NCBI GenBank assembly: GCA_017499595.2
Contig: CM039002.1
Span: forward strand, 3,348,001-3,412,000
DNA from: Psilocybe cubensis
Lineage: Eukaryota
DNA: 64,000 nucleotides
Direction: 5' to 3'
The translations under genes were made by a program, and so were the position numbers. Shown piece by piece: positions 1,646 through 25,476 of this stretch. The notes under the pieces are model-generated. The model worked only from the letters and a program-made list of their open reading frames with translations. It did no database searches and was not told the DNA's origin. The stretch's first letter is position 1. Each line of letters opens with the position of its first letter.

Positions 1646-1955
1646 CAGTAAATCCGGATTTTCGAAGGTAACTCAACGTATTGTCCTGCCAACCGGATGT
1701 AGCATCAAAGTGGGCTGTAGACAGTATAGCGTCATGTGTCATCGGCGGGATGCTCCGTTGAGCTCTGTAGCATTCCAACATTACTACTGCGAGCTTTGGA
1801 TTTTCCTAGCTATCTCTATGTACGATTCCAGACTTAGGAGAGTTTGATGTCCAATGTGATTGGTCTCAGTAAAGCTCTTCAATCATATCAAGCAATAAAA
1901 TGTACATTTTTAAAGGCAATTAAGTGTCTATTTACAATGTAGTATCTTGACCCTA

Positions 1956-2506: not shown

Positions 2507-2801
2507 GGTGTGTGATACGCTCACTTTGTCGTAGTTGGAATTCAAGCTGAAAACAAACTTCGCGGGTATAAAAATTCTTCAGGGGTTCTGTATACGTAAA
2601 ACAAAGTTCTATAGATTTTTCTAGGCTAGTCTAAGAAGATGCCTATCTAACTGAATGCGGGAGGAGCGCGCGTAGTGGTGGCAAGCAAAAGAGTGATTAT
2701 TGAGAATGCGTACTACATGGCGCGGTCGTGAAAGTTGAAACTTATTGAGACTATGTGGCAGTTGCAGCACTCTCACCAAAGGCGCATTTGCCGACCCAGA
2801 G

Positions 2802-3850
2802 TCACCATTGCAAGGCTTGTGCGAGGGCACGTTCGCAGCGACCAATTTCACGAGGTGGGAGACCAGATAACCTTGCCCAAGCACGGTTAGAATAACACTT
2901 TTCTTGTGAAAATTTGGAGGCCAGGATGAGGGATGCCAGAAAGGCTCTACGGGGACACAGGAGGGGAGATGGCAAAGAAAGGGTGGTGGAAAGAGGAGCC
3001 GTTGAGACCTGCACATCTACGCTGGACAGAGAGTCTTGTGGATAGATGCACGATTCAGCCAGATCTTGTGAACCAGAATCGGCAACACGGAATGTTTGCA
3101 TAGAATTGTCAATGAAATTATTGATGATGTTGATCTTGCCGGAGTTCTCAAGAGCAGTAAGCTCAGCATCCATCGCCAGCTCTTCTGGGGTAGCTTTCTG
3201 AATACTGCTTTTGGGCTGAGCATAAGAGCGAATGCCGATGTTTTCCTCTTGCAAAATCTGTGGGACCTTGGGACGAATGGATTCTAGATAACATAGTGCT
3301 ATCTGCAGTACGTTTTTAGATGTCCTTGAGTGGCGAAGGACTTTATAAACAAAAGACTTGAGGGGTAATATCTGATCGGATTTGGTGCCCGAGGCAAGCA
3401 AGAGGGTCGGGGAAGGGTTATGGCCGGATACGGAGGGATGACTGTTGTGTGGATGTATTGGATGTGTATGAGACGCTATGGATTGCAAATCGGAAGAGAT
3501 CTGCTTGGAAGTTGGACGGGAATGAGTAGGAGGAAAAGAGCTACCCCCTACTTTGGCGGGGGGTAGGAACACGGAAGGAATATCCTGAGGGTGCCAGATC
3601 TCGGACAAGGTGCTGACAGCTTGATCTGCAATGGAATTTAAAAAATAAAGTGAGTATCTCCGGCAAGGTGGGCGCTAATTGAGGACAGGACGGACCGGCA
3701 AGCCTTGAAAAAAAATTTTGTTTAGAAGAAGAGGCGCTCTGGGAAGAATCCTTTGGAATTTGCGCAGTGGTGGGTGGAATAGATGAGTGAGAACGACTTG
3801 ATTCTGCAGAAATGAGACGGATGGAGGGGTATTCAGTAGGTAATGATACA
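2802..3850 (-). pseudogene. Pcl/Clg1/Pas1-type (Pho85-partner family) cyclin, C-terminally truncated by a premature TGA
   Basis: Cyclin box: VLRHSRTSKNVLQIALCYLESIR ... SPLLCPRRAFLASLILASKFSQEKCYSNRAWARLSGLPPREIGRCERALAQALQW. The stop at 2802-2804 is followed in frame by LWVGK, so W-(R>stop)-LWVGK. Confidence 0.8.
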
Positions 3851-3883
3851 GAGGCATGGCAGGTATGGATTGTGGGAGAGAGG

Positions 3884-4390
3884 CCAATGCTTTCCTCTTG
3901 CAAATTTTGGGAACCTTGGGACGAATGGCTTCGAGATAACATAGTGCTGTCTGCAGTATGTTTCCAGATGTCCTCAATCCTCAAAGGACTTCAGTGGGTA
4001 GAAATAGGGAGGGAATGTCTTGAGGGCGCCAGATCTCAGATAAGGTGCTGACAGCTTAATCTGCAATGGAATTGAAAAAATAAAGTGAGTATCTCCGGCA
4101 AGATGGGCGCTAATTGAGGACAGGACGGACCGACAAGACTGGAGGCGAATTTTTGTTTAGAGGAAGAGGCACTCTGGGAAGAATCCTTTGGAGTTTGGGT
4201 GGTGGTGAGCGGAAGATGAGCGAGAACGACTTGATTCTGCAGAGATGAGATGGATGGAGGGATATGCAGTAGGTGACGATGATACAGTGTGAGAAAGCGG
4301 GACTGGTGAGAAGCGGCTGTTGATATTGATCCGAGTCGTCTTTGTGTACAACGAGGCCGGCGTGTTGGGTGATAATTTGAGTGGCAATGT
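3884..4390 (-). pseudogene. Degenerate, internally deleted tandem duplicate of the cyclin 5' region
   Basis: About 4025-4290 duplicates about 3590-3850, including the intron. About 3884-3975 duplicates about 3235-3325 (RTSGNILQTALCYLEAIRPKVPKI). The duplicate has GAT-TAA at 4056-4058 where the other copy has GAT-CAA. Confidence 0.75.
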
Positions 4391-4434
4391 GCATTAGGGA
4401 TTGAAAACTTTGTGGGTTTCCTGAGGTGGATATG

Positions 4435-7400
4435 TTATGATGACAGGGCCAAATAGAGTTCTTTGTCAAAATATTTGTTTAATCGGAACTCGGTGCTAGT
4501 GGAATGACTGTTATGTGTAGTAAGGCTTCGCCTTGCCTTTTCGCCCATCTGAGGGACCAGATCAACCAGGGAGCGTATTTGATTCAATGGTAAAATTCCA
4601 CCCATAATGGTGTTATCTGTACGTTGACTTCGTTTTAATTTATACATGCCGGTTATTGGCTCTGGGTAAGGTCCACGGATCGCAGAACCTAGAGACTGTG
4701 GCTGATTTAAAACCTCAAAACGTTGGACGTATGCGAGAAATCTTCCAGTAATATCGGGAGACACAGTACTGGGTGTCTCTCCGACAATGCGAAAAATAAT
4801 ACGAATGTCGACGACAGAATGGCCTACAATATTGGCTGGTCAACGGGGTTCGGAAAAAAGTCACAAAGAAGTACTACCTTGAAGCCCACTGCGAGGCCAC
4901 TCCTCAGATTCATCCACGTTTATGATTGCTGAATCGAAGTATCCAAAAGGATGTTTGTTAGATGGCGGATATGCATTAAGTGTGACTGCCTCCAGGATCT
5001 CATGAGGGTATTGGTACGCAGTCGACTGTATACGGACCTTATGCCATACCTCAAGTTTTGAATACGGCAACGGACAACCGGGAGGAGAAACACGCCTGCC
5101 AGTTATCCCCTTGATGTGATAACCTCGAGAATTGGTGTGTCTCGGATTTGATTCCTTATTGATGAGTGACACATAATCGGCAATTGCTGGTCGTAGGTCG
5201 GGAATTTTAAAAATGCTCGCAACCTCGTCGATATGCAATCTTTTGGAACTAGCATCCCTAGATAAATGGGCAACAACGTTTTTGCTGCAAGAAAATGTTC
5301 TGTAGGGGACTGGGCCTTCCAATACGCCACGCTCATAGAGACTAGCTTTGTAGAAGTAATCCACAATGCGATTGGACTTTGCTGATTGAAAGGTTGTCAT
5401 CGGCATGATTGTTGAAAGAAGTTCTGACGTTGTGTCCATCACAACCTCGCCGTTTTCCTCCCCCTCATCCCCCTCCTCCTGCTCCTCCTCATCCGTAATT
5501 GTTGCAGAGTGTATAGCCCGAAAATCGATCCTCATTTCTCGTATAGCTGTAAACAAATCGAAATTGCGCAATTTGTCACGACGATCAAGGTATCGACAAA
5601 CTTGAGGCTCGTATCTTTGATTATTGCTGGAACTGGAAGGGGCTTTGACCACCTCGATATGTGCATGCTCTGTCGTGTCTGCAGACCATTGGATTGCACA
5701 TCCATTTAGTCTAATTGCGTGTACTACACTTTGCAAAAACTCGAGTTTTGGAATATAGAAATTATCGATTGGGTTGTTTTTTTTACCTCGACGTGCTCCC
5801 GCGTCAAGGATGGCTTGTTTATTGGCATGGAAATCTTGCAGTGCCTGCTCAATTCTGAGACACATTGCCTCGGAGATTGTTTGAGATTGTGCGAGATACC
5901 GAAAGTCCATCAGAGACCGGATGGCTAAGATAAAGGGTGTACTGACTGTGTCTGCAATGAGAGCAACAATGTATCGCTGAACGTCCCGATGTTCCCTACC
6001 GGTCACTTGTTTCAAGGAAGAAATCCCTTCCTTGAAGTGTCGGAAACCAGTGCGGTGCTGTAAAATCGAAAATCGAAAATCCAATTCGGAACCTCCGACT
6101 GCAGCAATGCACCATTTTGCATCATGATCCCAGAACATCTTGTGCCAGTGATGAAGGGGTTCAGGCGTAAGGAATGCAGAAGGATCAGACAAGGGCCAAT
6201 CTCTCCAAAACGGTAGGTGAACCCCATTGAGACGGTGCTTTTTGCTTTCTTTTAGATATGGTTCGAGATGATTAGGGGGCTTAACATTGTTGATGGCCAT
6301 GATGGTGTTGATTGTATGATCTGCAGTTCGGGAAGGGTGGCGAAAGGAATCCCCAAACGTCTCGTATTGTGCCAACGTCACAGAGGATGTGGATCCTGCG
6401 ACGCAAGCCGCCAGAGCAGATTCTGGAGTATCAACGATAAGGGCAGCAAGCGGTGTAAAGCAGAAACGATTATTCCCCAATGCATCTGCTATGGTGGTTC
6501 CCACCCTCGCAGTTTGTTTGACCAATTCTAGAGCAATGTCCATGCACTGGTGATATAGCCGTGCTGCCATCATCCCATTCACAGCTTTGGAGCGATGAAG
6601 AAACTTTGGTATGGGAAGAAGAACAAAAAGAAGGAATAAATGATTTGACGATTTGTTTCTAACGTTCATCATTATGTTGGCAATGCTGATAAGGCCAGGG
6701 TAGGCGACACGGCCTCCGGTCATGTTGGAAATGTTGGTTTTATCCGTGGAAATAATAGGAGGTACAAGTGTTGCTCCTTTTGGGAGCTGGTCCTTGGGAA
6801 CCTTGTTATACTGTCGTCAAACTTGGACAAAGGCATTGCTACTAACCTGCATAAAATGCGCAATGTCACCGCTAAACCACTCAGTGTATACCCGCATCAT
6901 CTCGTTGCACTTGTCGAAGAGCTTGAATGGGCTAAAGTGCATGCTATCTTGGAGCAAGGGACTGATGAGAAGCGCCTTGATACATTCCAATCCATCGCGG
7001 TAAAAAAGCGTTAGCTGATTTTTGCTTGGTATTTCTGGTATGATCGTTTGACTCTTCCACTGCGGACCAGAGGGAAGGATCTCTGCCCGGTTGCGTAGAT
7101 CTTTTGCCGACTTGTAGGACAAGTTGAGTTTTTTTATCTATACGGGATCGACTCAGCTGAAATAAATAATGATGGGAATGTACGCTCAATTACCAGTTCA
7201 AGTTTCAAAAAATCATTCAGCATTCCTACGCTCATGTCAGAGCGAAGTAGGAACAGGGAGAGCTCCCATTCATCTTTCGAGGCAAAAGGATAGTACAAAT
7301 TTTCCGCCCGCTGGGGTTCGAATTGATCCTGTTTGAGCTGATCCATGAATGTAAGGCCTGTTCCAAATGCTCTTCCAGCCCCGTTATAATCCTCCTTCAC

Positions 7401-7739
7401 GTACGGATAGCTGTATTTTGATGCCTTGGGGGGTGGGTCATCTTCCATCTCTGATGACGCGCCAAGAAAATTGTCGATATAGTCCACTTCCATAAAATTA
7501 CCAATTTCGGGAGAAGGGTCTCGAGATACGGGGGTTGCTGATCTAGATGTAGAGCTTGAACGATTGGACTGAAAATGCATAACGTTCTCATATTGAAAAC
7601 GACATGCCGATTTTGGTTGATTGATGTGATTTTGGACATCTGCATGCTTAGCGAATGGCTTGTTGCATCGAGGACAACGCACACAGATTTCCTGAGTTCT
7701 CTTGCCCTTGCCCTTTCCCATGTTGAAACAACGACTCAT
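4435..7739 (-). CDS. Plavaka-family transposase with an N-terminal C2H2-like zinc finger (multi-exon)
   Basis: Motifs: CPRCNKPF..HADVQNHINQ; YYPFASKDEWEL; RAEILPSGPQWK; LFYRDGLECIKAL; spliced MQ|DQLPKGATLVPPIISTDKTNISNMTGGRVAYP; PLAALIVDTPE; PEPLHHWHKMFWD; ELDFRFS..RHFKEGISSLKQVTGREHRD; IPKLE..WSADTTEHAHI. Exons join in frame by GT-AG introns. Confidence 0.9.
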
Positions 7740-8210
7740 ACAAAAGCGAAGATACGAAAAAAAAACTGATAATGTAATGTTCAGTAACGTGCAGTGGGTC
7801 TATAAATGTTATCTGATTATGTCTCCGTTAATACAAACAAATTTCACATGGGTTAGTATTCAACCAATCCGTAGTACAATCCAAGGAGGGCTTCGGAAGA
7901 GCTTTACTGTATATACGCACCAGAACAAAGACACTAACACATTTTTTGAAGTGGGTGGAAGAAGCATCAACAAACGTAAGTTAGTTGATTTCATTGACCT
8001 TGATGATAAATTCAAACGCACAGCAGTTACAGTAAAGCCAGAAGCTTTCATCCCAGCGAGAATTTGCGTATTGGTCTGGCGATACGAGCAGCACACAACT
8101 ACAGATAATAAAACAATCGTCATTATGTTACAGGACATACACGCCTTTCAGTACTAAATAAAACATGGCATGTATGTAAATCAAGATGTGTGTCAATGTG
8201 TTGTACAATA

Positions 8211-11200
8211 TCAAAGTCGCCGTCGTTTAGAAGGCGGAACAGACTCTGATTCTGATGAAGAGATAAGCATTTGCGACGTAAAGGCATAATCGAACACACG
8301 TACTCGGATTTGTGCTCTCCAGCTTGACTTTCATGCCATCCAGATACAGTTTATCCCTCACACTCGTACCAAGTTCCAGAATCTCCTTGGGAGTTCCTAG
8401 TTTGTGACGTGGTTAGTGAATATCCAAAGGCAGACACTGGTCCACCTACTCAATTGCGTTGAGGAATCCGCACAGGCATCACAGTCAATGAGAGTGATTA
8501 CGGGTAACTTGAGCATCTTTGGGACCGAGGAACGAGGAAGCTGGTCGATACTGCGACATATAACCTTGTTCAATTCTCCGCTGCAGACGCCCTGAAGCTG
8601 GACAAAAAGCAAACTGGTGTCGGTACAGCAAGGGGCACCACCAATGTTGTTATGTTTGGCTTCTGCGTCGTAGGCTAGAATCATACGGGCATAGCGGCAA
8701 AGTATCATTTCATGGAACTTTTCTGTCGCCATGATATTTTGTGCATCCTTGTTTTTGTCCGTCTCAATCATGTAGTGGATGGACTTCGTGCGATGACATA
8801 GCCACTCTAGAATAGCCAAGGCTTCGCCACGGGCAAAGATGCACGCCTTGCGCTCTTCGTCGCTCAGGCTGTTGGTATCCCACCGCATCCATGCGTCTAA
8901 CTGTGCCGAAGTCTTGGTGGAGAACATCTGATCGGGATTTCGATAGGTCTCGTAGTCGAGCGCATTTGCCAAGATCATGCACACGCACAGAGCTATCAAG
9001 CTCGAGTATCCGGACTGCGTACTGTAGAATGGGACATGGTACATTTCATAAAAATCTGAGAGAAAATAGAAGAAAAGAATCAGATATCTTGTAGGAAACG
9101 GTAAAAAACCTCATACCTTCTGGGTCGCTGTCACCTTCAACCAAAACCTTGTAGAACCAATGTATAGTTTGCTGCAGGAAAAATCGGGACGTTGAATGAT
9201 TCGTATTCGTTGCCCTGTATCCAGCGGTAAAACAGTGAATGATTCCTGTCAGGGTTTCTTCGAAGGAAGTGGAGGAGTAAAAATGTCCGCCACGGCAAAC
9301 CACTGAGGAGATAGAATACGCCATATGTAGAGTATTCGGTCTCATGAAGCTGTTTTTCAAAGTAGCGTCAATATAATCAAATGGGTAGGACATTCAAAAA
9401 TCACATACAGTTCTGACTGGTTATCGAGAACAATCGCCTCGTAAATCCAGTCTTGGTGGTGCGTTTCCCCGTAATCCAGCTTGTCTCCCAGAAATACACG
9501 GCGGTCAGAAGAAAGGTCAACATCCAACCGTCTGGGATACATGATAATCCACAGCTTTAGTCCATGAAGAGGTTGGATGAAGGAACAGAAACCATTGGCA
9601 TCGATATGGATATCTGAAAATGCCCCCTCTGTAGCTACGAGTCCCCACGACATATCACCAAATGGGACGGGGGTACTATACTTCCAGCTACCAGATGTAG
9701 CCCGAAGAGCAGCCGCCTCAGTACTCAAGTCAAAAGAGTGAGCGCCTGCATGAGGTAAAGGGATGTCGAGGGCATTGAGGATCTTTCCTCTTTTGCCTTT
9801 CATCCTCGCTGCTTCCATGACCTGAGAGAGGGACCCACGCTTAATCCTCTCGATGGGGTTAGACGACATGGTCGACATATCTGTTACGGCCATTAGCATG
9901 AGACGCAGAAAGAAAAATCAAAACATCGAAGAGGAAACACACCTTGGATTGACCTGGTGCTCGTCATATCACCCATATGGCGACGTACCTGGCTGTAGAA
10001 CTCGTCGGAGCAAGTTGAAATAGACTCCTCTTGAGAAGGAGACATAAGGACGACGTTCCTTTCAGAGAAAGACTCCATCAGATACATGGATTTCGTGGTG
10101 CTGCGGTCGAATACCGCAAAACATGATTCTTCGGGACGTGCTATGTGCAATGGAACTCCATCGACGTAGTCACTCTCGACCAATTCCAGAACCCTTTCAA
10201 CACGATCCACGTCGGCTTGACTCTTGTTTGGAGAATAAATAAATGACGAAAAAATCAATATCGAGAATGACTTACATGGGCAACAACGCAGAAACTTTTA
10301 AGTTGGCCACGACCGTTGTAGATGGACCAAACTTTGGTGCCATACACCTTCTCCGGAGTGCTGACGACATCAAGGGTGGTGTTGCTGTCGTACAGATCGA
10401 CATCAATACACAGGTCGTCGTCCGAATCAAATGTGTCGGTAGCCTGCGTCGGCTTGCGTTTGGGAGGCCGCTTGGAAAGGCCCTGCCGGCCCTTCCCTTT
10501 CCCTTTCTGAGAGGAGTCAGCCGTGGTGTTTTTGCTCCTGTTTATCTGGGAAACAGGAGGAATCCTCAAAATAAGAGGAGCAGGAGGTGCGTTCTCCCCC
10601 TCCTTTTCGCCTTGGCTGTCTTCCAATGTATTCCTCTCCATGTCTGAGGAATCATTGTTTTGCTCTGGGCCTACCCCCTCTCCATCGACCGACATTCTGT
10701 CCTCCTGGACTGGTGGAACATCCCCTTGCCCCTGCTTCTCGGTCTCATTGTCCGACGAACTGTCGTCTGGCCTTTCCTCCTCACCATCTTCTGACATTCG
10801 GTTCTCCTCGTCGGGTCGTTCTCCGTCTTGCCCCTGCTTTTCGCCCTCGTGAACTTCCGACATATGATTTGCCTCGTCAGAAGACCCTTCAGCTCCTTGT
10901 CCAGCCCCGCCGTCTCCCAAATTTTCTGGACCATTGGTATGTGGACCATCCTCCATTTGATGGTCGACATCAGCTTGCTCCGGATCGACGTTCATCTCAC
11001 AATCCCCTGCAGTTGAGGGCCCAGTATTCTCAGTCTGAAGTAGACCAGATCCAATATCATCACTCCGCGGCAAACCAGGTTGCTTGTCCGTGGGCACATC
11101 CTTGCCAGCCACCGAAGATGTGTCTTCCGGAGGCTGTATATCTGAGGTAGGGACCGTATTGTCCCCGTTCTCCTGTTGACCCATGCTGACATCCTTGCCA

Positions 11201-12870
11201 GCCACTGAAGACGTGTCTTCCGGAGGCTGTATATTTGAGGTAGGGACCGTATTGTCCCCGTTCTCCCGTTGACCCATGCTGACCATTTCCGTCGTGTCCA
11301 CTTCGTGATCATCGTCACCCTCCGCGTCTGCGTCGGACCCTTCACAGGTGGTTTTTTCACCATGATGGGAAACGGTCTGAAGTTGAGCTGTTTTAAACGG
11401 ATTTAAATCATGTAATTGACGCAGACTTTGCTTATAACTTACCGTGTGGTTCAGTGCTGTGCCTTGCTAGGTTAGAATTTGCTGTAACCTTGGCGCTGCT
11501 CGTTGACGCTGGCCAATTATTAGTTTAAATTGTTATTTTGTTACAGTACGTAGAACACACATATGAAAAAGTGAAACGCGGGATCTTGTGCAATTACCCG
11601 CTCGCATTCCATCCAGCAGTCTGAGATAACAAGTTTATATAAGGCTGACTGGATGTCGCAATTTTGCGCTGCAATGATTTTCCAAATTTCCATCTCCACT
11701 TCACGCAGAACACGGGGGCGACAATTACCGAGCGCTTTTGAGGCCTAAAGGAGTGCGTTAATCCAAGTTAAACTGGGAGGATGTGGATACACCTACTTTA
11801 AGCAGCTGCTCCCGGTCACATTTCTTAGAATACCAAGATTTATTCACAAAAAGAAGGATGGGGGATATGAAAAGGGCGACATGCAGAGGAATTTTTAAAT
11901 GAGATGGCGTGACCTCTGAGAGGAACAACGCAGCATCAGGATGGCCGCTTGCACTAGGGTATGTTGAGCAGATTGTATCAATGAATAGAGGAAAGAAAAC
12001 TTACTAGAGATTTGCAAGAGTAGCCGTGTCCGTTGGAATGTCTGGTAGAATGTGTTCATTGTCCTTCATACCGCGCATTCCTGACAAGATTTGGTAGTGT
12101 AGCGAGGCGCAGTACACATTCCCGATTATTTTCCCCACAACACCCTTGAAGTGGTTACGCGCCAGACAGAGTAATAGCGTTGATTCCGAGGGCCCGCCCT
12201 GGGTGAAAGCGGATGACGGCGTGTCACTGATAGAAGGGGTGTTGATGTTTCTGTGCGACTTAGAGTCGGCTCTGAGGATGCGCTTCCTGGCAGAGCAGAG
12301 CATTGCCGGCCAGTCCTTCAAGTCATCTACAAGCTACAATAATTGTTTGAAAATTAAGAATTAACATTGAGTGACTTCATGATCGCATACCTTGAACCGT
12401 GAAAATATTTCCTTAGTTCCTGTGCTGGCCTGTATTTCATTCAGGGGCACGGTCACCGGCAACGATGGTCCAAAGGCTGCTGGCCACAACGCTACGAGAT
12501 CGAGTAGACGGTATGCTGCAAATAAGCTACCCGCCTGCTCCCATGTAGCCGAGGTTACGCAGGGTGTCTCTACGATGTTGTTCTGAAGGGCAGCCAAGCT
12601 TTGCCTATACTTGATGGCCGCTCGCATGCTCGATGATGAAACATCGTAATTCAAAAAGGTGAAGTCCTCATATCGTCGGAGGAAATCCACCATCCTCTAC
12701 AGAAACTTGATATTAGTACCATAAATGGCAATCCAATTAAGACCTACGCGGAGTGGGTGCGACTCTGGCAACATGTTTTCCAGAGTCTGACGAACGACCT
12801 GCGTTTCGAAGAGAAACACCAGAATTTCTTCAGCTTGGAGTCGGGCAACGGGGGAAATCTTCTGGGCTTG
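8211..12870 (-). CDS. Large multi-exon protein with an acidic disordered region and a JmjC (2OG-Fe(II) dioxygenase) domain; start uncertain
   Basis: WGLVATEGAFSDIHIDANGFCSF..GLKLWII (HxD plus Lys) and YEAIVLD..|FMRPNTLHMAYSISSVVCRGGHFY (distal His) give a JmjC double-stranded beta-helix signature. Consecutive minus ORFs (12361, 12004, 10255, 9893, 9357, 9046, 8397) are separated by short GT-AG introns. Ends PPSKRRRL*. Confidence 0.75.
11092..11283 (-). repeat. Two near-identical 96-bp direct repeats encoding MGQxENGDNTVPTSxIQPPEDTSSVAGKDV
   Basis: Visible in the DNA and in the 10255..11301 ORF translation. Confidence 0.9.
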
Positions 12871-13063
12871 CACTACAAAACTTCAACGTCTCACCCTGCA
12901 TTCTATTTCTTTGGGTACTTACTTTTTTTTGTGTGTTTTTTTCTGGTGTCTCAAATTTTCAACTAGATGAATTTTAACTGAACGAAAACTATTATAGAGT
13001 GTCTAGAGTATTGTCTATGTCTATTTTATTAGAATGTATGTTAAATCTATGGGGAGGGGTACT

Positions 13064-13309
13064 ACGCTATGACGAACGGAAAGAAAAACAATCAAGTTGG
13101 AAACACGCTATTTCCGGAGCGATTCTTTAGGGTAGGTTTCCCGTCCTGAAGTCACGAGTTGGTTAAAAAAACGCCCGTGATGCGGCTGATGTAAGGGGGC
13201 GTTTTTTTAACCAACTCGTGACTTCAGGACGGGAAACCTACCCTAAAGAATCGCTCCGGAAATAGCGTGTTTCTCACCATATGTTTTCTCTTTCCGTTCA
13301 TCATAGCGT
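13064..13309. repeat. Long inverted repeat (hairpin): perfect 77-bp arms with a 20-nt loop, plus imperfect outer arms
   Basis: 13100-13176 is the exact reverse complement of 13197-13273. 13064-13090 pairs imperfectly with about 13282-13309. Confidence 0.97.
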
Positions 13310-13514
13310 CTTATCATAGTAATAGGTTGTGTAGTATCTAAAAATAAATTATCACAAGTTAAGATGATAAATTAAGTGAGATGAACATCGATTAACAGTC
13401 TTTAAGACCCACAATGTCTAGTTATAAACGCAGATGACTTGACAGCCTAGGCAACCGCACAGTGTGTACTAATCCAACCCTCCATCTAATCACTAACTTC
13501 AGGGAAATTTAATT

Positions 13515-15773
13515 ATGATCTCAAAAAATCAGGACATTAATCCCTTCATAGACATTGAAGCAGCGGTTTCCGATGATGATGAAAGTTCGGAAGAGCTTGA
13601 TTATGAAGGGGGCCAACTACGTATGTTCCAATAATTTACATATATTCTGCTCAATATGTACTGATGCTAATGGGTTCTGACATACAGTGAATGATAACGA
13701 TGAATACTCTGAGGATGAGGAACGTGTTGCACACTCTCGGCTATATCATGCCATGCAAAATACAGATAACGCTGATGAATGGAGCGATTTGTTGCCCATG
13801 CTTCTGCCTTCACGCATGAAAATTCGTCCTGACAATGATATAGAGCCATCTAGTTCACGAGAACTTATACAGAAATATGGCAATCCCCAACCAGGAGGAC
13901 TTGGTGATAATAATTATATGCCTTCCGCGACTGATATCATGTATGAAATAGGTTGCAAGGTACGCAAAAATAATATAAGTCTTCAGTCAGCATTTATTGA
14001 TCACCTTACGAGTGATAGGTTGGACGCGAAGAGGCCGTCGCTTTCAAAATTATGCAGATGTCAACGAACCCTACATTTTCCATCATCCTTGCCCGGTCTG
14101 TCTTCGCTCAATCCTCAATTCCTGGGAGAATCTACGTCGAGGCGCCATCAATGCAACATGCGCATACGTTAGCCTGCCTCGTTAGAGAGCTTAATCCGAC
14201 ACATTTAGTTAGGCTATCCTCGGAGAGATGTATGGAGATCCTATCTCATCCCCCACCCTCACGCCCTGAAGACCAATCGTGGGTCAAGGTTGCTGGAAAG
14301 CGTAAGGCTTGGACGACCTACGCAAATGCTACCGGCCTTGTGTTCACATTCCAGGGTCGGAAAAGTGTTGTTCTTATCCCCAGACCTCCGGACAACATCA
14401 AGAAATCGCACCTCGACAGGATATTCCAGGATGGATTTATTATCACGGATTTCGACGCCATCGATCTCAAATATCTTTCCAATGTCCTCCCAACATCGTC
14501 CGAGTTGGAGCAATTTCGCGAGTGTCCATTTGTAACGACGGAGACCTTAGCGCAAGCCTCGAAAGCCATCTCCATGACTCGACTGAAACGATATGATCGA
14601 GTCAAAATTATTGGTGGAGAATACTTAGGTCTTTTTGGAACGGTCAAGAGTGTTTCTGACGCTGAGGTGGAAGTGCACATCCCCTCCCAAGGTATAACAC
14701 AAGCAGTTGCACTACACGATCTACGTGCAGCTTTCCAGATAGGCGATAGTATTGAAGTCGTTGAAGGGGATCACAAAGATCTCCATGGATGGGTGTCAGA
14801 CTTTGATGGAAGATCTGTTTGTATTATCGCCCCAGAGCACGAACGCGAAGTAGGTGAACTGTCATTCTCTTTGTCTCAGTAGTGTTCAACACATTTTTCA
14901 GGTCATTGTGCCCATCCACACAGTCATATTCTACGTCCCCCCTGCCCATGCTACTCTTCGCCCGCGAAAGCGTCATTCGTCAAAGCTTGGAGAAAGAGAC
15001 CACAACGACGTCTATATAGGTTTGAGTGTCATCGTTGTCGGGAATAATACATTCAAGGGGTACTATGGCATCGTTAAAAGCACTACCCCCGACGGCTTTG
15101 CAGACGTTGAGCTGGAAGCTCGTAACCAGAGGGTGGAACGTATTAAAATATCACATTTAATTATACAGTATGTGGTTTCACTTGATTCGTTGACTGTCAG
15201 GTGCTTACTGACATTGTTTCAAGCAACCGAGAACATATAAATTCCGCTCAAGACCCCGGGCCTTCTGGTGGAGCAACTCCAATGCCGTCCACAGTAGCAA
15301 GTTTTCTGTCTCCTGCATGGAATCCGTATTCAGCAATACCTGTACACTCGGCGGTGGAAATCGCAGAACTACCCTCAACCATCGCTCACTGGCTAGATAC
15401 GAAATACGATAAGCTGAAAGGATTACGATTAAAAGTCGTAGACAAATCCAAGGGCGACCATCAAGTGGCGATGGAACTTCTCAGCCTTACCGACGATACT
15501 GCCCACCTAGCATTACTGGGACGTACACTGACATTACCGAAATCAGTGTTGTTTCCAATTCATCCTGTAAAAAAGGACGACTTCGTTACACCGCTTGAGG
15601 GCGATTCAATGGGGATTATATTCAGGATACGATCAATAGACAAGGATATTTGCGTTGTACATAAATATCCCGTTACTCGTATGAAACGCGGTGATACATT
15701 CCCAACTTTTCCGACAACATCTTTGATTCAAATCTTCCCCCCGTCCCGTGGTGTCAAAGTTGTAAATATGTAG
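13515..15773 (+). CDS. Spt5/NusG-like transcription elongation factor paralogue (acidic N-terminus, NGN domain, several KOW motifs)
   Basis: NPFIDIEAAVSDDDE acidic N-terminus. NGN-like YEIGCK|VGREEAVAFKIMQ..SVFAQSSIPGRIYVEA. KOWs: YDRVKIIGGEYLGLFGTV, FQIGDSIEVVEGDHKDLHGWV, IGLSVIVVGNNTFKGYYGIVK..ADVELEA. CTR remnant GGATPMP..SPAWNP. About 5 exons. Shorter and more diverged than canonical SPT5. Confidence 0.82.
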
Positions 15774-15940
15774 GGTGCAGCATTACTTGTATCTCGAACA
15801 CGGACTTGTAGACATATACGGGTTTTATGTCATTCTATTTAAGTGTATTTCGGCAATCAACAGTGCTAATGGTTCGTAATGTGTTGATCGTCTTGAACTT
15901 AAGCCACCACCACCACACCAAATTGTTGCCTATCTTTATC

Positions 15941-16283
15941 ATGAACCATTCCAATAGCAACAACGCTTCGCAACCTCAAAGTCGCCGCCTCCCTAGCATA
16001 CCCGAAGAGGCAGAGTTCTTTGTTTTAGGTCTATTTTCATGTTTTAATCCACCTTCCTCTAGAATCAAGGCATAGAGGCCGTTAAAAAGGCTCTTGACCA
16101 ATTTCAACTCACTGAACAGAGGTGTCTAGAAGTTCAGGCAGAGCTACGTTGTTATATGGACGACATTATGCGAGCATATAAATCCAATGAAGATCTTCTG
16201 TTTGAAACCCAGCTCGAAATCGCCCATCTACGGGTATCCCTCATTAGTCGGGGAATACCTATTCTAATGCACCCTCAGGATAA
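15941..16283 (+). CDS. Small coiled-coil hypothetical protein (2 exons, probable GC-AG intron)
   Basis: MNHSNSNNASQPQSRRLPSIPEE|NQGIEAVKKALDQFQLTEQRCLEVQAELR...LEIAHLRVSLISRGIP..*. Confidence 0.4.
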
Positions 16284-16567
16284 TCCGCGATCATGATAGG
16301 TGCAGTCTTTTCCCCTCTGAGATGTAACTTTACTTAACTCTAAGTAGGACATGGAATCTGACTATAATGTATATGTGATATATTGTAGTAGATAGGGGTA
16401 CTGTTTCAGTACCTGTAATTTCTATATGGCACGATATATTTTTGACTGATGTCCGTCGCCTTAAATTTTGAAAAGAGGCTAATTTCGCATACCTCCGGAT
16501 CGTAGCTTGACATAATTCACCACCCCTTGTCTCTATTTCTGCATTACAACCGTCAAACCAGCCCAAT

Positions 16568-19274
16568 ATGCCACCTAAAGGATCCAAAAAGAAAAAGGCG
16601 GTTGTCAATGCCACGGTTGAAGGTATCATCTATATATCCTCATTACATCCGCATACTTAATGTTTTATCCATCTAGGACAAGAGGTTGAACAGGGTCCGA
16701 GCTCCGTGGCAGAAAACGAGCCACCTCAGGCTCCTGAAGCAGGTCTGTACTAGCATTTTCTTTGTTGAGATTCACTGAACTCCTTATTAAAAAGACCACA
16801 ATGGCCGTCCTATCCGAAGCACCCGTGGTCTTGGTGGAGTAAATGCTCGGCAGGAGAAAACATCTAACATCATTTTTATTGACTTCGAGAAGGCTGGGAA
16901 GAGGAAGTCAAGGGCCGCCAATGTGGATACTAGCGCCATGCCTGAAAATGAGATGGCGCCTCCCTTGAAGAAACCTCGCAATGGGGTGAGTCTACTGTTC
17001 TAATCTTAAATTTGCTATCTTCCAAGCACGTCTAGGTTACCGTTGTGTCGCATGTAGGTCCCCCTATTCAAATGCAACCAAGGCCAACGCCTTCAGTTGC
17101 TCCTTGGGATGTCCAACAAGTCCAACCAAGCCCACGACAATCTCAGGGTGCCCCCCCTCCTGTCCAGATCCAACGTGCAGCTCAGAGAAATCAGGAGCAC
17201 TCAGAGCTTGATCATGCTGTCCAAAGACCCACTGCCCCCATCCAGCGCCCCGCTGCTCCGGTACAACAGCCAGCACATCCTGTCCCGCGCCCCGTACAAC
17301 ATGCAGCACATCCTGTCCCGCGCCCTGTACAACACGCAGCAAATCCTGTTCAGCGTTACGCTGCCCCTGCGGCAGAGAATTCTGTCCAATACTACGATGC
17401 CCCCGTACAACAACCAGTGCATCCTGTAACACAACATGCCCCCGTACAACAGCCAGTGCATCCAGCAGCCTATAACGCCCACCAAGAGGCTAGCATCAGC
17501 CATCAAGACGAGGAGGAGCAACAAGATTACGAAGGCATAGAGCAGGAGGAAGATGAGGAGGAGGAAGAGGGGGATAGTGACGGTGAAAGGCAATCTGAGG
17601 AAGCATCAGGGGACGAATGCATGCAAGGAATTGATGAAGAGAATATTGGGGATGAAGAAGCTCTCCAATATGTCGACGGTGAAGCCTGCTGCCCAGCGTT
17701 GGTTTAACTCCACCTTTATGTTGTGTTTGCTTACCACCTATGTTTGACAGTGGTTGATGAAGTTTCCGATGATGAAGAGGAGAGGAGAGCAAGGGCATTG
17801 CTCCGCCAGCCTTCCCCCCATGTAATCATTTCTCTGCTGTATTTAATGTCTAGCTAATGTATTATTGATATAGGTTGTGGAAGTAGAGGATGTTCTTCAA
17901 GAACACCGTCGTCGTAATCGGGCGAACAAGCCATCTCGCCCTGAGGCATTGCGCAAGGCGGCTGTTTCGCAAGGAGCCGTATCCCAAGGTTTGACAAGGG
18001 AGAACAACGAAGCATCTGACGATGATGAGGTGCTTGGTGAGGCACACATCGCTCATAAGAAGTCCAGTACTTCTTCTGCTAGGGAAGTATCCAAGCATTC
18101 AGTTGCATCCTTTACTGGTTACTGGAAAGATGTGCTCAAAATTGCACGCAAACTGATGTGCCTGTATGTAGTAGAGGAGGTCCCCTTTCCCACTCGGGAA
18201 AATCACTTATTAGTCGCCGATGGATGTGTGAAGATGGCAGTAACCGTGTTTGAAAGAATGAACACGGATAAAGTGTTGCCTGATAGTAAGTTCTGTCTTC
18301 TGTGATTTTAGTTAATTGGTTTACATAACTTTGCAGAGAAAAAAACGCTCCTAGACAGGAATACCGCCGTAACGGTATATTTTTAGCGTGTTCTTTTAAG
18401 GATATCGTACTAACGTGTCTGTTCTCATTAGGCATTTGTCTACGCGTCAACCTTCCGGGGAAGACTGAAGACGATGATCAGACCCCTGGTCAAAAATGCG
18501 TATGGCCTCGAAGTCCCGTCGGAGGTCATCGCCGCGAACCCCAATATGTTTGAAAATCAGATGGGGGAGATCGAATACATCAAGGACAGGGTAGCATATT
18601 GGCTACTCAATGGTAAATACCACCGGGGTGTTGCCAAAACCCGAGTGAGTTCGCCGTCCATTTTACCTGGCTTACCACTCATTGATTTGTTTCCAGTATC
18701 ACGATGTCCCATTTGGACATCCTTTTGTGAAGAAGATCTGTCTGGACTTCTTCTACCATCCTACAAAAGGGGTTGCAGTCCCCATCAAAGGTCTGGAGAC
18801 AAAGACGGATTTCTTCAAGACATCGCTTCCCCACAAAGCATTTGCGCTTGTGGCCAGTTGTGTAGTTCTGATTTCTCTCCTGCTATTGGCACTGCCTTGC
18901 TAACAAGCATTTTGCTGTAGATCCACAACTGTCTTGAGGAGTGGAGGGATGGGATTGACCCTGCAAGAGGTGGTCCGTGTTCGGGTATTGAATTCAAGGG
19001 AGAGGAGTACTCCCTGAGGTATGATGCCTGCATGTTGGTTGCAGCAGAGGCAGAGAAGGATACCTTGAACCAAGGTCCTCGCTTGGCTCGCTTATGTAGG
19101 GAAGTGGCTGAGGAAGGATGGTGTGTATCTTTTTTTATTCATTTCTTTCTTTGCATCATTTAGATCTCCATAATCAGTGCTATTATGAGGCCTACGAAGA
19201 ACCCCCCCAACCCTTATAGGATGACTCTCCATTCTATCCCACAGGAGGAACTAGATTACGGTCCAGAAGGGTAG
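16568..19274 (+). CDS. DUF6532-like transposon-associated protein with Q/P-rich and acidic N-terminal half (multi-exon)
   Basis: Starts MPPKGSKKKK. C-terminal ASTFRGRLKT...PFGHPFVKKICLDFFY...PHKAFALVASC|IHNCLEEWRDG...FKGEEYSLRY resembles the agaricomycete DUF6532 pattern. Confidence 0.6.
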
Positions 19275-19541
19275 TTGGGTGAATGAGCGGGGCAGCTGCC
19301 GGGTGTGGATTAGAAGATACCATATTTAGATCGTCACATATTAATAGTTATGCATCTACTAATAGAAACATGTTTGGTCCGATCCAAACATAGATTATCT
19401 ATTTTTAAAATTGCCCATTTTAGTCAAAAATGGTTCGGTTTTCAGTGTGATATTGGCACTTGCAGGAATAGCCACACAACACTATACAAATGAAAGTGGA
19501 TACTATATATGCCTTTGTACCTATTTGCAGTGTGTTATGAT

Positions 19542-19614
19542 GTGCTACAAATCTGTGGTAGCATGCTACAAATCTGTGGTAGCATGCTACAAATCTGTGG
19601 TAGTATGCTACAAT
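19542..19614. repeat. 21-bp tandem repeat (TGCTACAAATCTGTGGTAGCA), about 3.5 copies
   Basis: Read directly from the sequence. Confidence 0.9.
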
Positions 19615-19814
19615 TTGTATGTCAGTTGTATACAGAGGGGTATGGACCATGGTAAGCATGCTACACGCCGCTACACAGCACTCGCGTTACAATACAGATC
19701 ACTACAGAGTACCATGTCACGTTGGTACCAAGCTACAGGTACATCAGTGTGTGTTACCCAAATGGGACCGTTACTATGGGCACTACAGAATTACGTATCA
19801 CTACGGATCATTAC

Positions 19815-20642
19815 CTACTTGGCCCCGGTATTGCTGATGATGGTTAGGGGGAGCATTGGCAAGGGCATGTTAACAGGCAAGTTAATCATGGGTAACTTGG
19901 AGTTGGCAACCGGCAGTGTGTTTATAGACGAGTGAGCCATGGGAGAGGGATTCATGGGCGAGGGATTCATGGGCGAGGGATTCATGGGCGAGGGAGCCAT
20001 GGGCGAGGGAGCCATGGGCGATGGTCTGATGGACGAGCTGGGCGAGGGATTCATAGACGAGCTGGGTGATGTATCCATGGGCGAGGGATTCATGGGCGAT
20101 GGCTTTGTGGACGAGCTGGGCGAGGGTGCCATGGGTGTGGGATTCATGGGCAATGGTTTTGTAGACGAGCTGGGCGAGGGATTCATAGACGAGCTGGTGT
20201 TTAAGAAAAAGTCTGGCGAGGCATCCATTGGATGGTGGTGTTCAATTGGCGAGGGTGTCTTGGCAGGCATATCTATTGTGGGCGACATATTAAGTATGTC
20301 TTCTGCACGCAGGGAGATAGTAGACGGAGTATGGGTTTCCTCAACCATGGGCGTTTGTGAATTGACTACTTTGGATAGGTTGTTCAACTCATGGCTGGTA
20401 TGTTGTGCAGAGTGGTCCTCGTCGAGATCAATGGGTTCAGCAGATGAGCCTCCGGACCATGATCGACTGAATGCAGCTAGTTTCTCTGACGAGTGTACAG
20501 GTACGTACTCAGCTTCAGAAGCCATGTTCATGGTGATGTTTGGAGACCCCATTTTTTCCAGCCCATCTTCAACAATTTGACAGTTTCCGCACATAGCACT
20601 GTAACATTGTACAGTAACATACGATACAATGAACCTATACAT
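19815..20642 (-). CDS. Hypothetical protein with 15-bp MNPSP/MAPSP repeats (a further 3' exon to about 19670 is possible)
   Basis: 275-aa ORF. Repeats at about 19935-20200 account for the antisense MGEGF ORF. Confidence 0.5.
   Translation of the reverse strand: MYRFIVSYVTVQCYSAMCGNCQIVEDGLEKMGSPNITMNMASEAEYVPVHSSEKLAAFSRSWSGGSSAEPIDLDEDHSAQHTSHELNNLSKVVNSQTPMVEETHTPSTISLRAEDILNMSPTIDMPAKTPSPIEHHHPMDASPDFFLNTSSSMNPSPSSSTKPLPMNPTPMAPSPSSSTKPSPMNPSPMDTSPSSSMNPSPSSSIRPSPMAPSPMAPSPMNPSPMNPSPMNPSPMAHSSINTLPVANSKLPMINLPVNMPLPMLPLTIISNTGAK

Positions 20643-21966: not shown

Positions 21967-25476
<3,510 letters not shown>

What the first reader, a model, noticed from the sequence alone, without database searches (positions are those of the whole stretch)
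2802..19447. Giant Plavaka transposon carrying a chromatin/transcription toolkit (JmjC + Spt5-like + cyclin): candidate transposon-encoded anti-silencing system
Seen: one block of more than 19 kb holds an intact-looking Plavaka transposase, a JmjC protein with HxD...H residues, an NGN/KOW Spt5 paralogue, a Pcl-type cyclin and a DUF6532-like gene, ending in a CACTG-type terminus. Established: KDZ and Plavaka elements in basidiomycetes are known to travel with TET/JBP dioxygenases; JmjC proteins can demethylate histones; Spt5 drives Pol II processivity and is regulated by CDK-cyclin phosphorylation. Inference: the cargo is functionally coherent (erase repressive marks, promote elongation, recruit a CDK). 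It may be a giant cargo-mobilising element that keeps itself transcribed in heterochromatin, analogous in scale to ascomycete Starships but driven by a DDE transposase.
Basis: partly seen in the sequence, partly recalled or inferred. Interest (0 to 1): 0.9.

Follow-up and report, generated by a model that had tools for sequence, protein, structure and literature searches.

The report
Giant Plavaka transposon with chromatin genes
This is a real 18-kb jumping gene, present in about a dozen near-identical copies in the mushroom Psilocybe cubensis, and it carries a histone-demethylase-like gene, a copy-like relative of the transcription factor Spt5 and two other genes whose role is still untested.

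Summary
The unit is window 1643-19839 (18,197 bp). Raw reads of another strain cover exactly this stretch about 13 times deeper than the left flank. They break off sharply at both ends into several different flanks.

The ends read 5'-CATCAG...CTGATG-3', the PlavakaB signature described in PMC12730594, with a 2-bp AT duplication. Removing the unit restores a 388-aa reading frame. Named Psilocybe cubensis gene models show the same gene order on 8 contigs.

The element carries five genes:
- A Plavaka transposase.
- A divergent JmjC protein. Its family profile hits KDM7, PHF2, PHF8 and KDM2A at E 2e-8, and the metal and 2OG residues are conserved.
- A divergent Spt5 paralogue with NGN and KOW domains.
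- A weakly supported PHO80-type cyclin.
- A DUF6532 gene.

The window's own copy is decaying. It has two nonsense mutations, and its private changes are concentrated at CpG sites.

An Spt5-like gene also sits beside related Plavaka transposases in metagenome contigs. No JmjC-like or cyclin-like gene does.

The anti-silencing function is untested. I rate this a new variant of a known kind, with interest 0.7.

The parts
1643..19839 (.). The whole PlavakaB-type transposon, 18,197 bp
   Evidence: In the raw DNA run X13, depth is about 450-600 from 1643 to 19839. It is 42 at 1642 and about 0 beyond 20177. Loose ends lie at 1642/1643 and at 19839, with low consensus agreement (0.38-0.54), so the flanks differ.
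1641..1642 (.). Left copy of the 2-bp target site duplication (AT)
   Evidence: Removing the element plus one AT restores a 388-aa ORF.
19840..19841 (.). Right copy of the 2-bp target site duplication (AT)
1643..1657 (+). Left terminus, CATCAGTAAATCCGG
   Evidence: It matches the reverse complement of the right end at 12 of 15 positions. The CATCA start is the PlavakaB terminus given in PMC12730594.
19825..19839 (-). Right terminus, ...CCGGTATTGCTGATG
1698..1771 (+). Left subterminal TGTAGC motifs (2 sites, + strand)
19543..19737 (-). Right subterminal TGTAGC motifs (7 sites, - strand), including a 21-nt tandem repeat at 19543-19613
   Evidence: Nine of the window's 33 sites lie within 300 bp of the two ends, in inverted orientation (binomial p 2e-11).
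2038..3746 (-). PHO80/Pcl-type cyclin-like gene (weak assignment)
   Evidence: Exon map from the sister-copy models P0015 and P0009. PF08613 at E 0.005, below cut-off. Atlas score 0.85 to PF08613 clusters.
3234..4287 (.). Partial tandem duplication of the 5' part of the cyclin-like gene (about 87% identical units)
   Evidence: Depth there equals the rest of the element.
4435..7721 (-). Plavaka transposase gene (N-terminal C2H2-like finger, PF18759 domain, DUF6830)
   Evidence: An in-frame TGA at 6817-6819 lies in a putative 36-nt intron.
8293..12774 (-). JmjC-like gene (about 1290 aa in sister copies). H-I-D is in exon 9411-9881 and the second His in exon 9118-9348. The window copy has a stop at 11747.
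13064..13309 (.). 246-bp palindrome (113-nt arms, 92% complementary) between the divergent JmjC-like and Spt5-like genes
13414..15770 (+). Spt5-like gene (acidic N-terminus, NGN, at least 3 KOW). The window copy has CGA>TGA at codon 8 (13435).
15812..16296 (+). Two short ORFs of unknown nature
   Evidence: no family found.
17036..19163 (+). DUF6532-like gene with a Pro/Gln-rich and acidic N-terminal part. The window copy lacks 35 nt at 17682/17683 that many X13 reads carry.

Best explanation
Window 1643-19839 is one copy of an 18.2-kb DNA transposon of the PlavakaB lineage. Plavaka is a DDE transposase group related to CACTA/EnSpm. The host is Psilocybe cubensis, identified by near-identity to named proteins.

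Shown here:
- The whole 18.2 kb is one repeat unit, present in roughly 11-16 nearly identical copies.
- It has sharp ends that read CATCAG...CTGATG, a 2-bp duplication, different flanks at different loci, and internal-deletion derivatives.
- This copy interrupts a reading frame.
- Besides the transposase, every full copy carries a JmjC protein of the KDM2/KDM7/PHF8 type with its metal and 2OG residues kept, a divergent Spt5 paralogue, a probable PHO80-type cyclin and a DUF6532 protein.

Inferred:
- The element moves by cut-and-paste. The transposase would recognise the inverted subterminal TGTAGC repeats.
- The accessory proteins act on the chromatin and transcription of the element's own copies. 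The JmjC would remove or oppose repressive histone marks, the Spt5-like would support Pol II on the element, and the cyclin would bring in a Pho85-type kinase. I put about 0.3-0.35 on this functional part.

The confidence given below is for the structural claim.
For: Copy number and boundaries:
- 68,421 reads of run X13 were laid, and 55,790 of them are at least 99% alike.
- Depth is 467 at position 1665 against 42 at position 1642. It stays at about 450-600 in every bin up to 19839 and falls to about 0 beyond 20177.
- 370 loose ends lie at 1642/1643 and 380 at 19839, with consensus agreement 0.38-0.54. The right flanks differ between X10, X12 and X13.
- Deletion joints occur at 6084>7459 (27 reads) and 1755>7030 (7 reads).

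Termini:
- The ends match the PlavakaB termini and the 2-3 bp duplication described in PMC12730594 (passages; sequence).
- Removing the element restores the interrupted frame.

Public gene models:
- 15 of the 39 cluster members were listed.
- 7 fused models join the JmjC-like gene to Plavaka, 6 join Plavaka to the cyclin-like gene, and 4 join all three. Together with separate JmjC-like models, these copies lie on 8 contigs.
- JR316_0004105-0004109 are consecutive: Spt5-like (two models), the JmjC N-terminal model, the JmjC-like gene, then Plavaka.
- A second 'SPT5' model lies two accession numbers from a JmjC-like model on another contig.

Family assignments:
- Among 31 JmjC-family members the key residues are kept: His 27, Asp 28, Lys 27 and the second His 29.

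Recurrence elsewhere:
- Spt5-like genes lie upstream of transposases 49-51% identical to this one in metagenome loci L002, L004 and L005. Their profile hits SPT5 chains at E 1.2e-7, and the top 10 hits are all SPT5.
- A relative of the DUF6532-like gene lies beside the transposase in L009 (tblastn E 1.9e-7).
Against: - No RNA evidence. No listed run that holds the stretch is on record as RNA.
- The window copy has nonsense codons in two accessory genes and lacks 35 nt in a third. Loss of these genes is therefore tolerated in at least this copy.
- 18 of 29 window-private transitions are at CpG, against a background of 19% (p 4e-7). That fits methylated, silenced copies.
- None of the 28 related metagenomic Plavaka loci holds a JmjC-like or cyclin-like gene in the flanks that were held.
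- None of 149 JmjC-family relatives is fused to Plavaka, Spt5-like or cyclin-like sequence.
- The two Spt5-like accessory types are not demonstrably related to each other beyond both resembling SPT5 (hhalign probability 2.9%).
- The copies are too alike for a dN/dS test.
- The transposase frame depends on an unusually short 36-nt intron that has not been verified.
- A 2-bp duplication matches by chance 1 time in 16.
- No empty-site allele was seen.
Confidence: 0.88

Rival explanations
1. Passive cargo. The four extra genes were captured by the transposon, as in gene capture by plant CACTA and Pack-MULE elements. They ride along without helping it, and their apparent intactness only reflects the youth of the burst.
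For: - The copies are at least 99% alike, so selection cannot be read from them.
- The window copy already carries two nonsense mutations and a 35-nt gap in accessory genes.
- None of the 28 related Plavaka loci carries a JmjC-like or cyclin-like gene.
- None of 149 JmjC relatives is fused to Plavaka.
Against: - All four are complete multi-exon genes, not fragments.
- The JmjC-like gene is a full-length member of a family of 926 representatives, with catalytic residues kept.
- The Spt5-like gene is only distantly similar to SPT5 (E 1e-10), so it is not a fresh copy of the host gene.
- Spt5-like and DUF6532-like genes recur beside other Plavaka transposases.
- At least 6 listed sister copies keep the same full-length JmjC model.
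Confidence: 0.25
2. The accessory proteins serve transposition itself rather than anti-silencing. Possible roles are DNA binding or synapsis, like TnpA of En/Spm, or timing of excision in the cell cycle through the cyclin.
For: - CACTA-type elements commonly need a second protein (recalled, not tested here).
- Subterminal repeats are present.
- A cyclin-like gene is on board.
Against: - None of the four proteins shows a recognised DNA-binding domain in Pfam.
- JmjC and Spt5 families act on chromatin and RNA polymerase (established knowledge).
Confidence: 0.15
3. Not one element. Either a small Plavaka lies next to or nested in host genes, or this is a segmental duplication of a host gene cluster.
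For: - No long terminal inverted repeat was found. Only 12 of 15 terminal bases match.
- The JmjC-like family is large and may include host genes.
Against: - Depth is uniform over all 18.2 kb, with no step at the transposase gene.
- Both outer ends carry the PlavakaB signature and a duplication.
- Flanks differ between loci.
- The same gene order is seen on 8 contigs.
- Removing the unit restores a frame.
Confidence: 0.03

Closest known systems
PlavakaB transposons of Agaricomycotina, including the TET/JBP-carrying families of Agaricus bisporus and Gymnopus confluens (PMC12730594; passages and section 3.2.3 read, supplements not seen)
   Same: Plavaka transposase, 5'-CATCA..TGATG-3' termini, 2-3 bp duplication, an agaricomycete host, and a 2OG/Fe(II) dioxygenase as passenger.
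   Different: The passenger dioxygenase here is a JmjC of the KDM2/7 type, not TET/JBP. No TET/JBP hit came from any ORF scanned. There are three further accessory genes. That paper's main text has no occurrence of JmjC, Spt5, KOW, cyclin or Psilocybe.
Giant Plavaka elements of the red alga Bostrychia moritziana with accessory genes PAG1-3 (bioRxiv 10.1101/2025.02.11.637652; passages read)
   Same: The same transposase lineage, the same size class (17.4-19.1 kb) and several chromatin-related accessory genes, including a 2OG oxygenase domain. Anti-silencing is proposed but untested there too.
   Different: The accessory set differs. There it is an N6-adenine methylase plus SET protein and a ParB-like plus 2OG oxygenase protein. 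Here it is JmjC, Spt5-like, cyclin-like and DUF6532. That preprint states that in basidiomycetes only TET/JBP was known as a Plavaka accessory gene.
VANDAL (MuDR) elements of Arabidopsis with the anti-silencing protein VANC (PMC5735166, PMC10398659; search listing and abstracts only)
   Same: A DNA transposon that encodes its own factor against epigenetic silencing. This is the functional model for the present element.
   Different: The transposase superfamily is unrelated. VANC is a sequence-specific DNA binder, not an enzyme or an elongation factor. Its function is shown experimentally, whereas nothing is shown here.
Epe1 of fission yeast, a JmjC anti-silencing factor (PMC6576747, PMC7192584; abstracts only)
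   Same: A JmjC protein that counteracts H3K9me heterochromatin.
   Different: Epe1 is a host gene. Direct similarity between Epe1 and the element's JmjC was not tested here.
Specialised Spt5 paralogues such as plant SPT5L/KTF1 (RNA-directed DNA methylation 3)
   Same: NGN-KOW proteins that diverged from SPT5 and work with a specialised transcription system on transposons. The PDB chain 8hyj_W appears weakly (E 0.13) for the metagenomic Spt5-like profile.
   Different: Those are host genes that promote silencing (recalled). Here the paralogue is carried by the transposon, and the direction of its effect is unknown.
Starship elements of Pezizomycotina
   Same: Fungal mobile elements that carry cargo genes.
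   Different: Starships move by a tyrosine-recombinase 'captain' and are described as far larger (recalled). No such gene was found here, and this element's enzyme is a DDE-type Plavaka transposase.

Membership tests
Plavaka (PlavakaB) DNA transposon | Transposase with the Plavaka domain (PF18759) | tested here: met
   E 1.5e-62, 212 bits against a cut-off of 26.3. Sister models reach E 7e-72.
Plavaka (PlavakaB) DNA transposon | Termini 5'-CATCA..TGATG-3' (criterion from PMC12730594) | tested here: met
   Read-defined ends at 1643 and 19839 read CATCAG...CTGATG.
Plavaka (PlavakaB) DNA transposon | Target site duplication of 2 or 3 bp | tested here: met
   AT on both sides. The frame is restored on removal. 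This is weak on its own, since 2 bp match by chance 1 time in 16.
Plavaka (PlavakaB) DNA transposon | Several copies at different loci with the same ends | tested here: met
   Depth is about 13 times the flank, with mixed flanks at both ends. Gene models lie on 8 contigs.
Plavaka (PlavakaB) DNA transposon | Observed excision or an empty-site allele | tested here: inconclusive
   No joint from 1642 to 19840 was listed. The right flank has no depth in X13.
JmjC 2OG/Fe(II) dioxygenases (KDM2/KDM7/PHF8 type) | Significant match to a JmjC model | tested here: met
   The single sequence fails in Pfam and reaches only E 0.4 to PHF2. The profile of 31 relatives gives E 2e-8 to KDM7, PHF2, PHF8 and KDM2A, and 14 of 14 hits are JmjC. 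Five of the 31 relatives weakly hit PF02373.
JmjC 2OG/Fe(II) dioxygenases (KDM2/KDM7/PHF8 type) | H-x-D...H metal triad and the 2OG-binding Lys | tested here: met
   H185, D187, K202 and H259 of the 530-aa segment align to those of KDM7. They are kept in 27, 28, 27 and 29 of 31 family members.
JmjC 2OG/Fe(II) dioxygenases (KDM2/KDM7/PHF8 type) | Cupin/JmjC fold | not tested
JmjC 2OG/Fe(II) dioxygenases (KDM2/KDM7/PHF8 type) | Histone demethylase activity | not testable with these tools
   Needs an enzyme assay.
Spt5/NusG family | NGN domain | tested here: met
   PF03439 scores 24.3 bits on the window ORF and 31.5 bits on sister model P0022, against a cut-off of 22.4.
Spt5/NusG family | KOW domains after the NGN | tested here: met
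   KOW2_Spt5 at E 6e-13, plus KOW5 and KOW hits on two ORFs. 14 of 14 PDB hits are SPT5, best 1.1e-10.
Spt5/NusG family | C-terminal repeat region that CDKs phosphorylate | tested here: not met
   No repeat array. A single SPAWN-like motif aligns with the fission-yeast repeat, in a stretch that is not significant on its own. No tandem repeat lies in that gene.
PHO80/Pcl-type cyclins (PF08613) | Match above the Pfam gathering score | tested here: not met
   17.6 bits against 21 on the window ORF. Nothing at E 0.01 or better on the fused models P0015 and P0016. No PDB hit. The atlas score of 0.85 is lead level. I call it cyclin-like, not a proven member.
DUF6532 | Match above the Pfam gathering score (24 bits) | tested here: inconclusive
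   Three collinear pieces cover profile positions 55-101, 113-158 and 158-188, scoring 23.2, 17.0 and 14.6 bits in three ORFs. Each is below the cut-off. They could not be joined for a search.
Transposons carrying TET/JBP | A TET/JBP dioxygenase gene inside the element | tested here: not met
   No TET/JBP family appeared in any Pfam scan of the element's ORFs.
Starship elements | Tyrosine-recombinase captain gene at one end | tested here: not met
   No such family appeared in the Pfam scans. The ends and the enzyme are Plavaka-type.

The most novel reading that the evidence does not exclude
A DNA transposon that brings its own transcription and chromatin kit: a private Spt5-type elongation factor, a KDM2/7-type JmjC enzyme and a CDK-recruiting cyclin. 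These would act on the element's own copies to keep them transcribed despite 5mC and histone-methyl silencing. The Spt5-like factor would be an old, recurrent partner of Plavaka transposases rather than a chance capture.
Probability: 0.3. Interest if true: 0.85.

Novelty: new variant of a known kind. Interest (0 to 1): 0.7.

Why it matters
Transposons that encode their own counter-silencing factors are few. The known examples are VANC, TET/JBP, SET proteins and the red-algal PAG genes. None is known to carry an RNA polymerase II elongation-factor paralogue.

Three things stand out here:
- A young, high-copy family of about a dozen near-identical 18-kb copies sits in a cultivable mushroom. Its accessory genes point at histone demethylation and transcription elongation.
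- That makes the idea directly testable, by comparing expression, 5mC and histone marks between full and deleted copies and by knocking out the accessory genes.
- The JmjC-like family has 926 representative clusters, and the Spt5-like proteins common in basidiomycetes (lead level) may largely be transposon passengers that genome annotations currently list as host genes. Fused gene models named 'cyclin pas1' or 'SPT5' in the public annotation are examples.

Tried and rejected
- Long terminal inverted repeats around the block: none found. The pair 2014-2040 / 20992-21018, which contains CACTG, is only 74% complementary and lies off the read-defined ends.
- Whole-genome search: no genome is held for this window.
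- RNA evidence: no RNA holder was listed. Two possible RNA runs hold next to none of the words, and I did not lay them.
- Empty-site allele: not seen. The right flank has no depth in any of the four runs laid.
- Spt5-like homologues longer than 504 aa: none.
- A large 72-sequence alignment failed. I used 31 shorter relatives instead, which biases that set against long fused proteins. The fusion check was therefore done on 149 of the 150 listed hits.
With the 55% paralogue P0023, 20 pattern matches were found but no relative.
- Direct profile comparison of the two Spt5-like types: not significant.
- PDB search for the cyclin-like part: no hit.
- Literature: no paper was found that links Plavaka or KDZ with Spt5, JmjC or cyclin genes in fungi. 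One search gave 6 papers, none on fungi by title or abstract. One search gave 0 papers. One search showed nothing on Psilocybe transposons in its 15 listed rows. One search gave 1 paper, which only lists DUF6532 alongside KDZ and Plavaka domains.
- Limits of the literature check: the library lacks most subscription journals. Iyer et al. 2014 was not read. The supplements of PMC12730594 (Figure S2, Data S1), which hold further Plavaka families, could not be seen.

Full report
**What the window is**

The JmjC-like exon at 9411-9881(-) is 99-100% identical to three proteins of Psilocybe cubensis. The window is therefore from that species or a very close strain. No listed public gene model is letter-identical to the window; segments are 80-100% identical, most exons 94-100%. 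The window also holds a KDZ transposase with a CxC2 domain at 28.5-31.6 kb, so this is a transposon-rich region.

**Checking the observation**

Pfam scans gave these results:
- Plavaka transposase is confirmed: PF18759 at E 1.5e-62 plus DUF6830 on ORF 4861-6816(-).
- The Spt5-like gene is confirmed: NGN, KOW2_Spt5 and KOW on 14019-14882(+), and KOW5 on 14854-15240(+).
- The cyclin call rests on a sub-threshold PF08613 hit, 17.6 bits against a cut-off of 21. It is backed only by a lead-level atlas score of 0.85 and by the public product name 'G1/S-specific cyclin pas1' on fused models.
- DUF6532 appears as three collinear pieces, each below the cut-off, in three ORFs.

The JmjC call needed more work.
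- Pfam is silent for the window protein.
- Its best PDB match, PHF2, has E 0.4.
- An exhaustive search found 926 representative relatives at E 1e-3 or better, and 332 at 1e-10 or better.
- A profile of 31 of them hits only JmjC demethylases in the PDB: KDM7, PHF2, PHF8 and KDM2A, 14 of 14 hits, best 2e-8.
- The H-x-D, Lys and second His residues are aligned, and they are kept in 27, 28, 27 and 29 of the 31 members.
- Five of the 31 weakly match Pfam JmjC.
- UniRef names several relatives 'JmjC domain-containing protein' in Agrocybe, Gymnopilus and Panaeolus.

**Is it one mobile unit?**

No long inverted repeats bound the block, and no genome was available. I therefore laid public reads on 1501-21500.

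In the raw DNA run X13, which carries the same species label, 68,421 reads were laid and 55,790 of them are at least 99% alike. The depth pattern is:
- 42 at position 1642.
- 467 at position 1665.
- About 450-600 in every bin up to 19839.
- About 0 beyond 20177.

Loose ends pile up exactly at 1642/1643 (69 and 301 reads) and at 19839 (380 reads). Their consensus agreement is only 0.38-0.54, which means several different flanks. Contigs of three other runs break at the same base, 19839, into different sequences.

The unit is therefore 1643-19839, 18,197 bp, at roughly 11-16 copies. Two estimates give this range:
- Element depth of about 560 against a flank depth of 42.
- Element depth against the 32-51x expected from 1,632 million letters read and a genome of at least 32 Mb. 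The 32 Mb is the sum of the nine distinct contig lengths seen.

Depth shows no step at the transposase gene, so the transposase is not a smaller nested element.

The reads also show variant copies:
- Joints at 6084>7459 (27 reads) and 1755>7030 (7 reads). These are internal-deletion derivatives, as expected of cut-and-paste elements.
- A 35-nt stretch at 17682/17683 that the window copy lacks. About 211 reads carry it, and about 360 loose ends also mark the spot.

**Ends of the element**
- The unit starts CATCAGTAAATCCGG and ends CCGGTATTGCTGATG. Twelve of the 15 terminal bases are inverted-complementary.
- A 2025 paper (PMC12730594; passages read) gives 5'-CATCA..TGATG-3' with 2-3 bp duplications as the signature of its PlavakaB group.
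- Here AT flanks both ends. Deleting the element plus one AT restores a continuous 388-aa frame on the minus strand.
- The hexamer TGTAGC occurs twice just inside the left end on the + strand, and seven times just inside the right end on the - strand. That is 9 of the window's 33 sites, within 600 of its 64,000 bases (p about 2e-11). The right-hand cluster includes a 21-nt tandem repeat.

**Independent support from public gene models**

The 90% cluster of P0003 has 39 members, all from P. cubensis, and 15 were listed. Mapping them on the window gives:
- 7 fused models that run from the JmjC-like gene into Plavaka.
- 6 that run from Plavaka into the cyclin-like gene.
- 4 that span all three.
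- The order and strand always match the window. Together with separate JmjC-like models, these copies lie on 8 contigs.
- At least 11 separate JmjC-like gene copies are listed.

On one contig, the consecutive locus tags JR316_0004105 to 0004109 are Spt5-like (two models), the JmjC N-terminal model, the JmjC-like gene and Plavaka. On another contig, a model named 'Transcription elongation factor SPT5' lies two accession numbers from a JmjC-like model.

**Anatomy of the element**
- Left subterminal region: 1643-2037.
- Cyclin-like gene: 3746>2038(-). Its 5' part is partly duplicated in tandem at 3234-4287.
- Transposase: 7721>4435(-).
- JmjC-like gene: 12774>8293(-), about 1290 aa. Its N-terminal region is shared by 39 of 149 relatives.
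- A 246-bp palindrome at 13064-13309, between the divergent genes.
- Spt5-like gene: 13414>15770(+), with an acidic N-terminus, NGN and at least three KOW domains. It has no C-terminal repeat array.
- Two unexplained short ORFs: 15812-16296.
- DUF6532-like gene: about 17036>19163(+).
- Right subterminal region, running to 19839.

**State of this copy**
- It has a stop in the JmjC-like gene at 11747 and a CGA>TGA change at codon 8 of the Spt5-like gene (13435). At 13435, 270 of 270 and 230 of 231 X13 reads carry C.
- Among the 40 best-supported differences shown (99 more were not shown), 29 are sites where the window has T or A and nearly all reads have C or G. Eighteen of the 29 are at CpG, against a background of 19% (p 4e-7).
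- This is the mark of 5-methylcytosine deamination, so the copy has probably been methylated.
- The transposase frame contains a TGA at 6817-6819, within a 36-nt GT..AG piece that all public models remove. Whether this is a real intron is unverified.

**Do the accessory genes travel with Plavaka elsewhere?**
- None of 149 JmjC-family relatives is fused to Plavaka, Spt5-like or cyclin-like sequence.
- A metagenome scan with the transposase gave 28 loci at 38-56% identity.
- None of these loci holds a JmjC-like or cyclin-like gene in the flanks that were held. Only about 5-7 loci have more than 3.3 kb upstream.
- L002, L004 and L005 carry a 397-399-aa ORF 2.4-3.6 kb upstream of the transposase. 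These three are one family, with ORFs 90-100% alike. The ORF's profile hits SPT5 chains at E 1.2e-7, and the top 10 hits are all SPT5, covering NGN-KOW1 and KOW2-3.
- L009 has a relative of the DUF6532-like gene beside its transposase (E 1.9e-7).
- The two Spt5-like types are not significantly alike directly. Common descent and independent capture both remain open.

**How it most likely works**

Shown: this is a multi-copy PlavakaB transposon that carries these genes as integral parts.

Inferred, for mobility: it moves by cut-and-paste, with the transposase acting on the CATCAG ends and the subterminal repeats.

Inferred, for the accessory genes, with about 0.3-0.35 probability:
- The JmjC of KDM2/7 type removes or opposes repressive histone methylation on the copies. 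This parallels the TET/JBP genes of other fungal transposons and the 2OG oxygenase of the red-algal PAG3.
- The Spt5-like protein supports Pol II on the element.
- The cyclin-like protein recruits a Pho85-type kinase.

Against a fully effective system: the window copy shows CpG decay and broken accessory genes.

Rivals: passive cargo (0.25), a role in transposition itself (0.15), and not one element (0.03).

**Comparison with what is known**
- Fungal Plavaka and KDZ elements are known to carry TET/JBP (PMC12730594).
- Giant 17-19 kb Plavaka elements with three other chromatin-type accessory genes are described in a red alga (bioRxiv 10.1101/2025.02.11.637652; passages read). That preprint states that only TET/JBP was known in basidiomycetes.
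- My searches found no report of JmjC, Spt5-like or cyclin genes in fungal transposons. The library has gaps, and the supplements of PMC12730594 could not be seen.

**Verdict**

This is a real element and a new variant of a known kind. The function of the accessory genes remains open.

Noticed in passing
window 28477-31636 (+): A second, unrelated DNA transposon gene: a KDZ transposase (PF18758, E 2.5e-38) preceded by a CxC2 cysteine cluster (E 1.9e-15). Large neighbouring ORFs at 32223-33560(+) and 34973-36490(-) have no Pfam family.
   Followed up: no
window 1643-19839, 29 positions listed: Window-private changes are almost all C>T or G>A relative to the reads of another strain, and 18 of 29 are at CpG. 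This is a deamination signature, suggesting this copy is or was cytosine-methylated.
   Followed up: partly
window 19840-21500: The right flank of the insertion has essentially no depth in any of the four runs laid, while the left flank is at single-copy depth in X13. The sequence to the right may be strain-specific or highly variable.
   Followed up: no
window 22580-23045: About 17 tandem copies of a 27-nt unit inside a 327-aa ORF (22163-23146, +), encoding repeats like AAPQ(S/T)RVSG.
   Followed up: no
window 33795-34731: A complex array of 73/137-nt tandem repeats, 65-97% alike.
   Followed up: no
window 51452-54265 (+): A 937-aa ORF in a G+C-rich stretch (up to 57.5% GC against about 45% elsewhere), with no Pfam family.
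   Followed up: no
window 13064-13309: A 246-bp near-perfect palindrome sits exactly between the divergently oriented JmjC-like and Spt5-like genes. Reads show strand-switch joints there. It may be a shared regulatory hairpin or a small nested foldback element.
   Followed up: partly
proteins P0023/P0174 and P0025/P0176: More distant JmjC-like paralogues (55% and 35% identical) also occur as near-identical copies in the P. cubensis annotation: P0023 and P0174 on two different contigs, P0025 and P0176 five locus tags apart on one contig. This hints that other repeat families carry this gene type.
   Followed up: no
runs X10, X11, X12: Runs labelled with three other organism codes hold short contigs at least 99% identical to all parts of the element (41 of 46, 41 of 48 and 29 of 33 pieces). 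Two of them (X10, X12) break off at 19839 into right flanks of their own. I did not interpret this.
   Followed up: no
L009:1639-2580 (-): A metagenome contig with a related Plavaka transposase also carries a THO complex subunit 2 gene fragment (THOC2_N, E 6.7e-34) about 7.4 kb upstream. This is probably a host gene next to the insertion.
   Followed up: no
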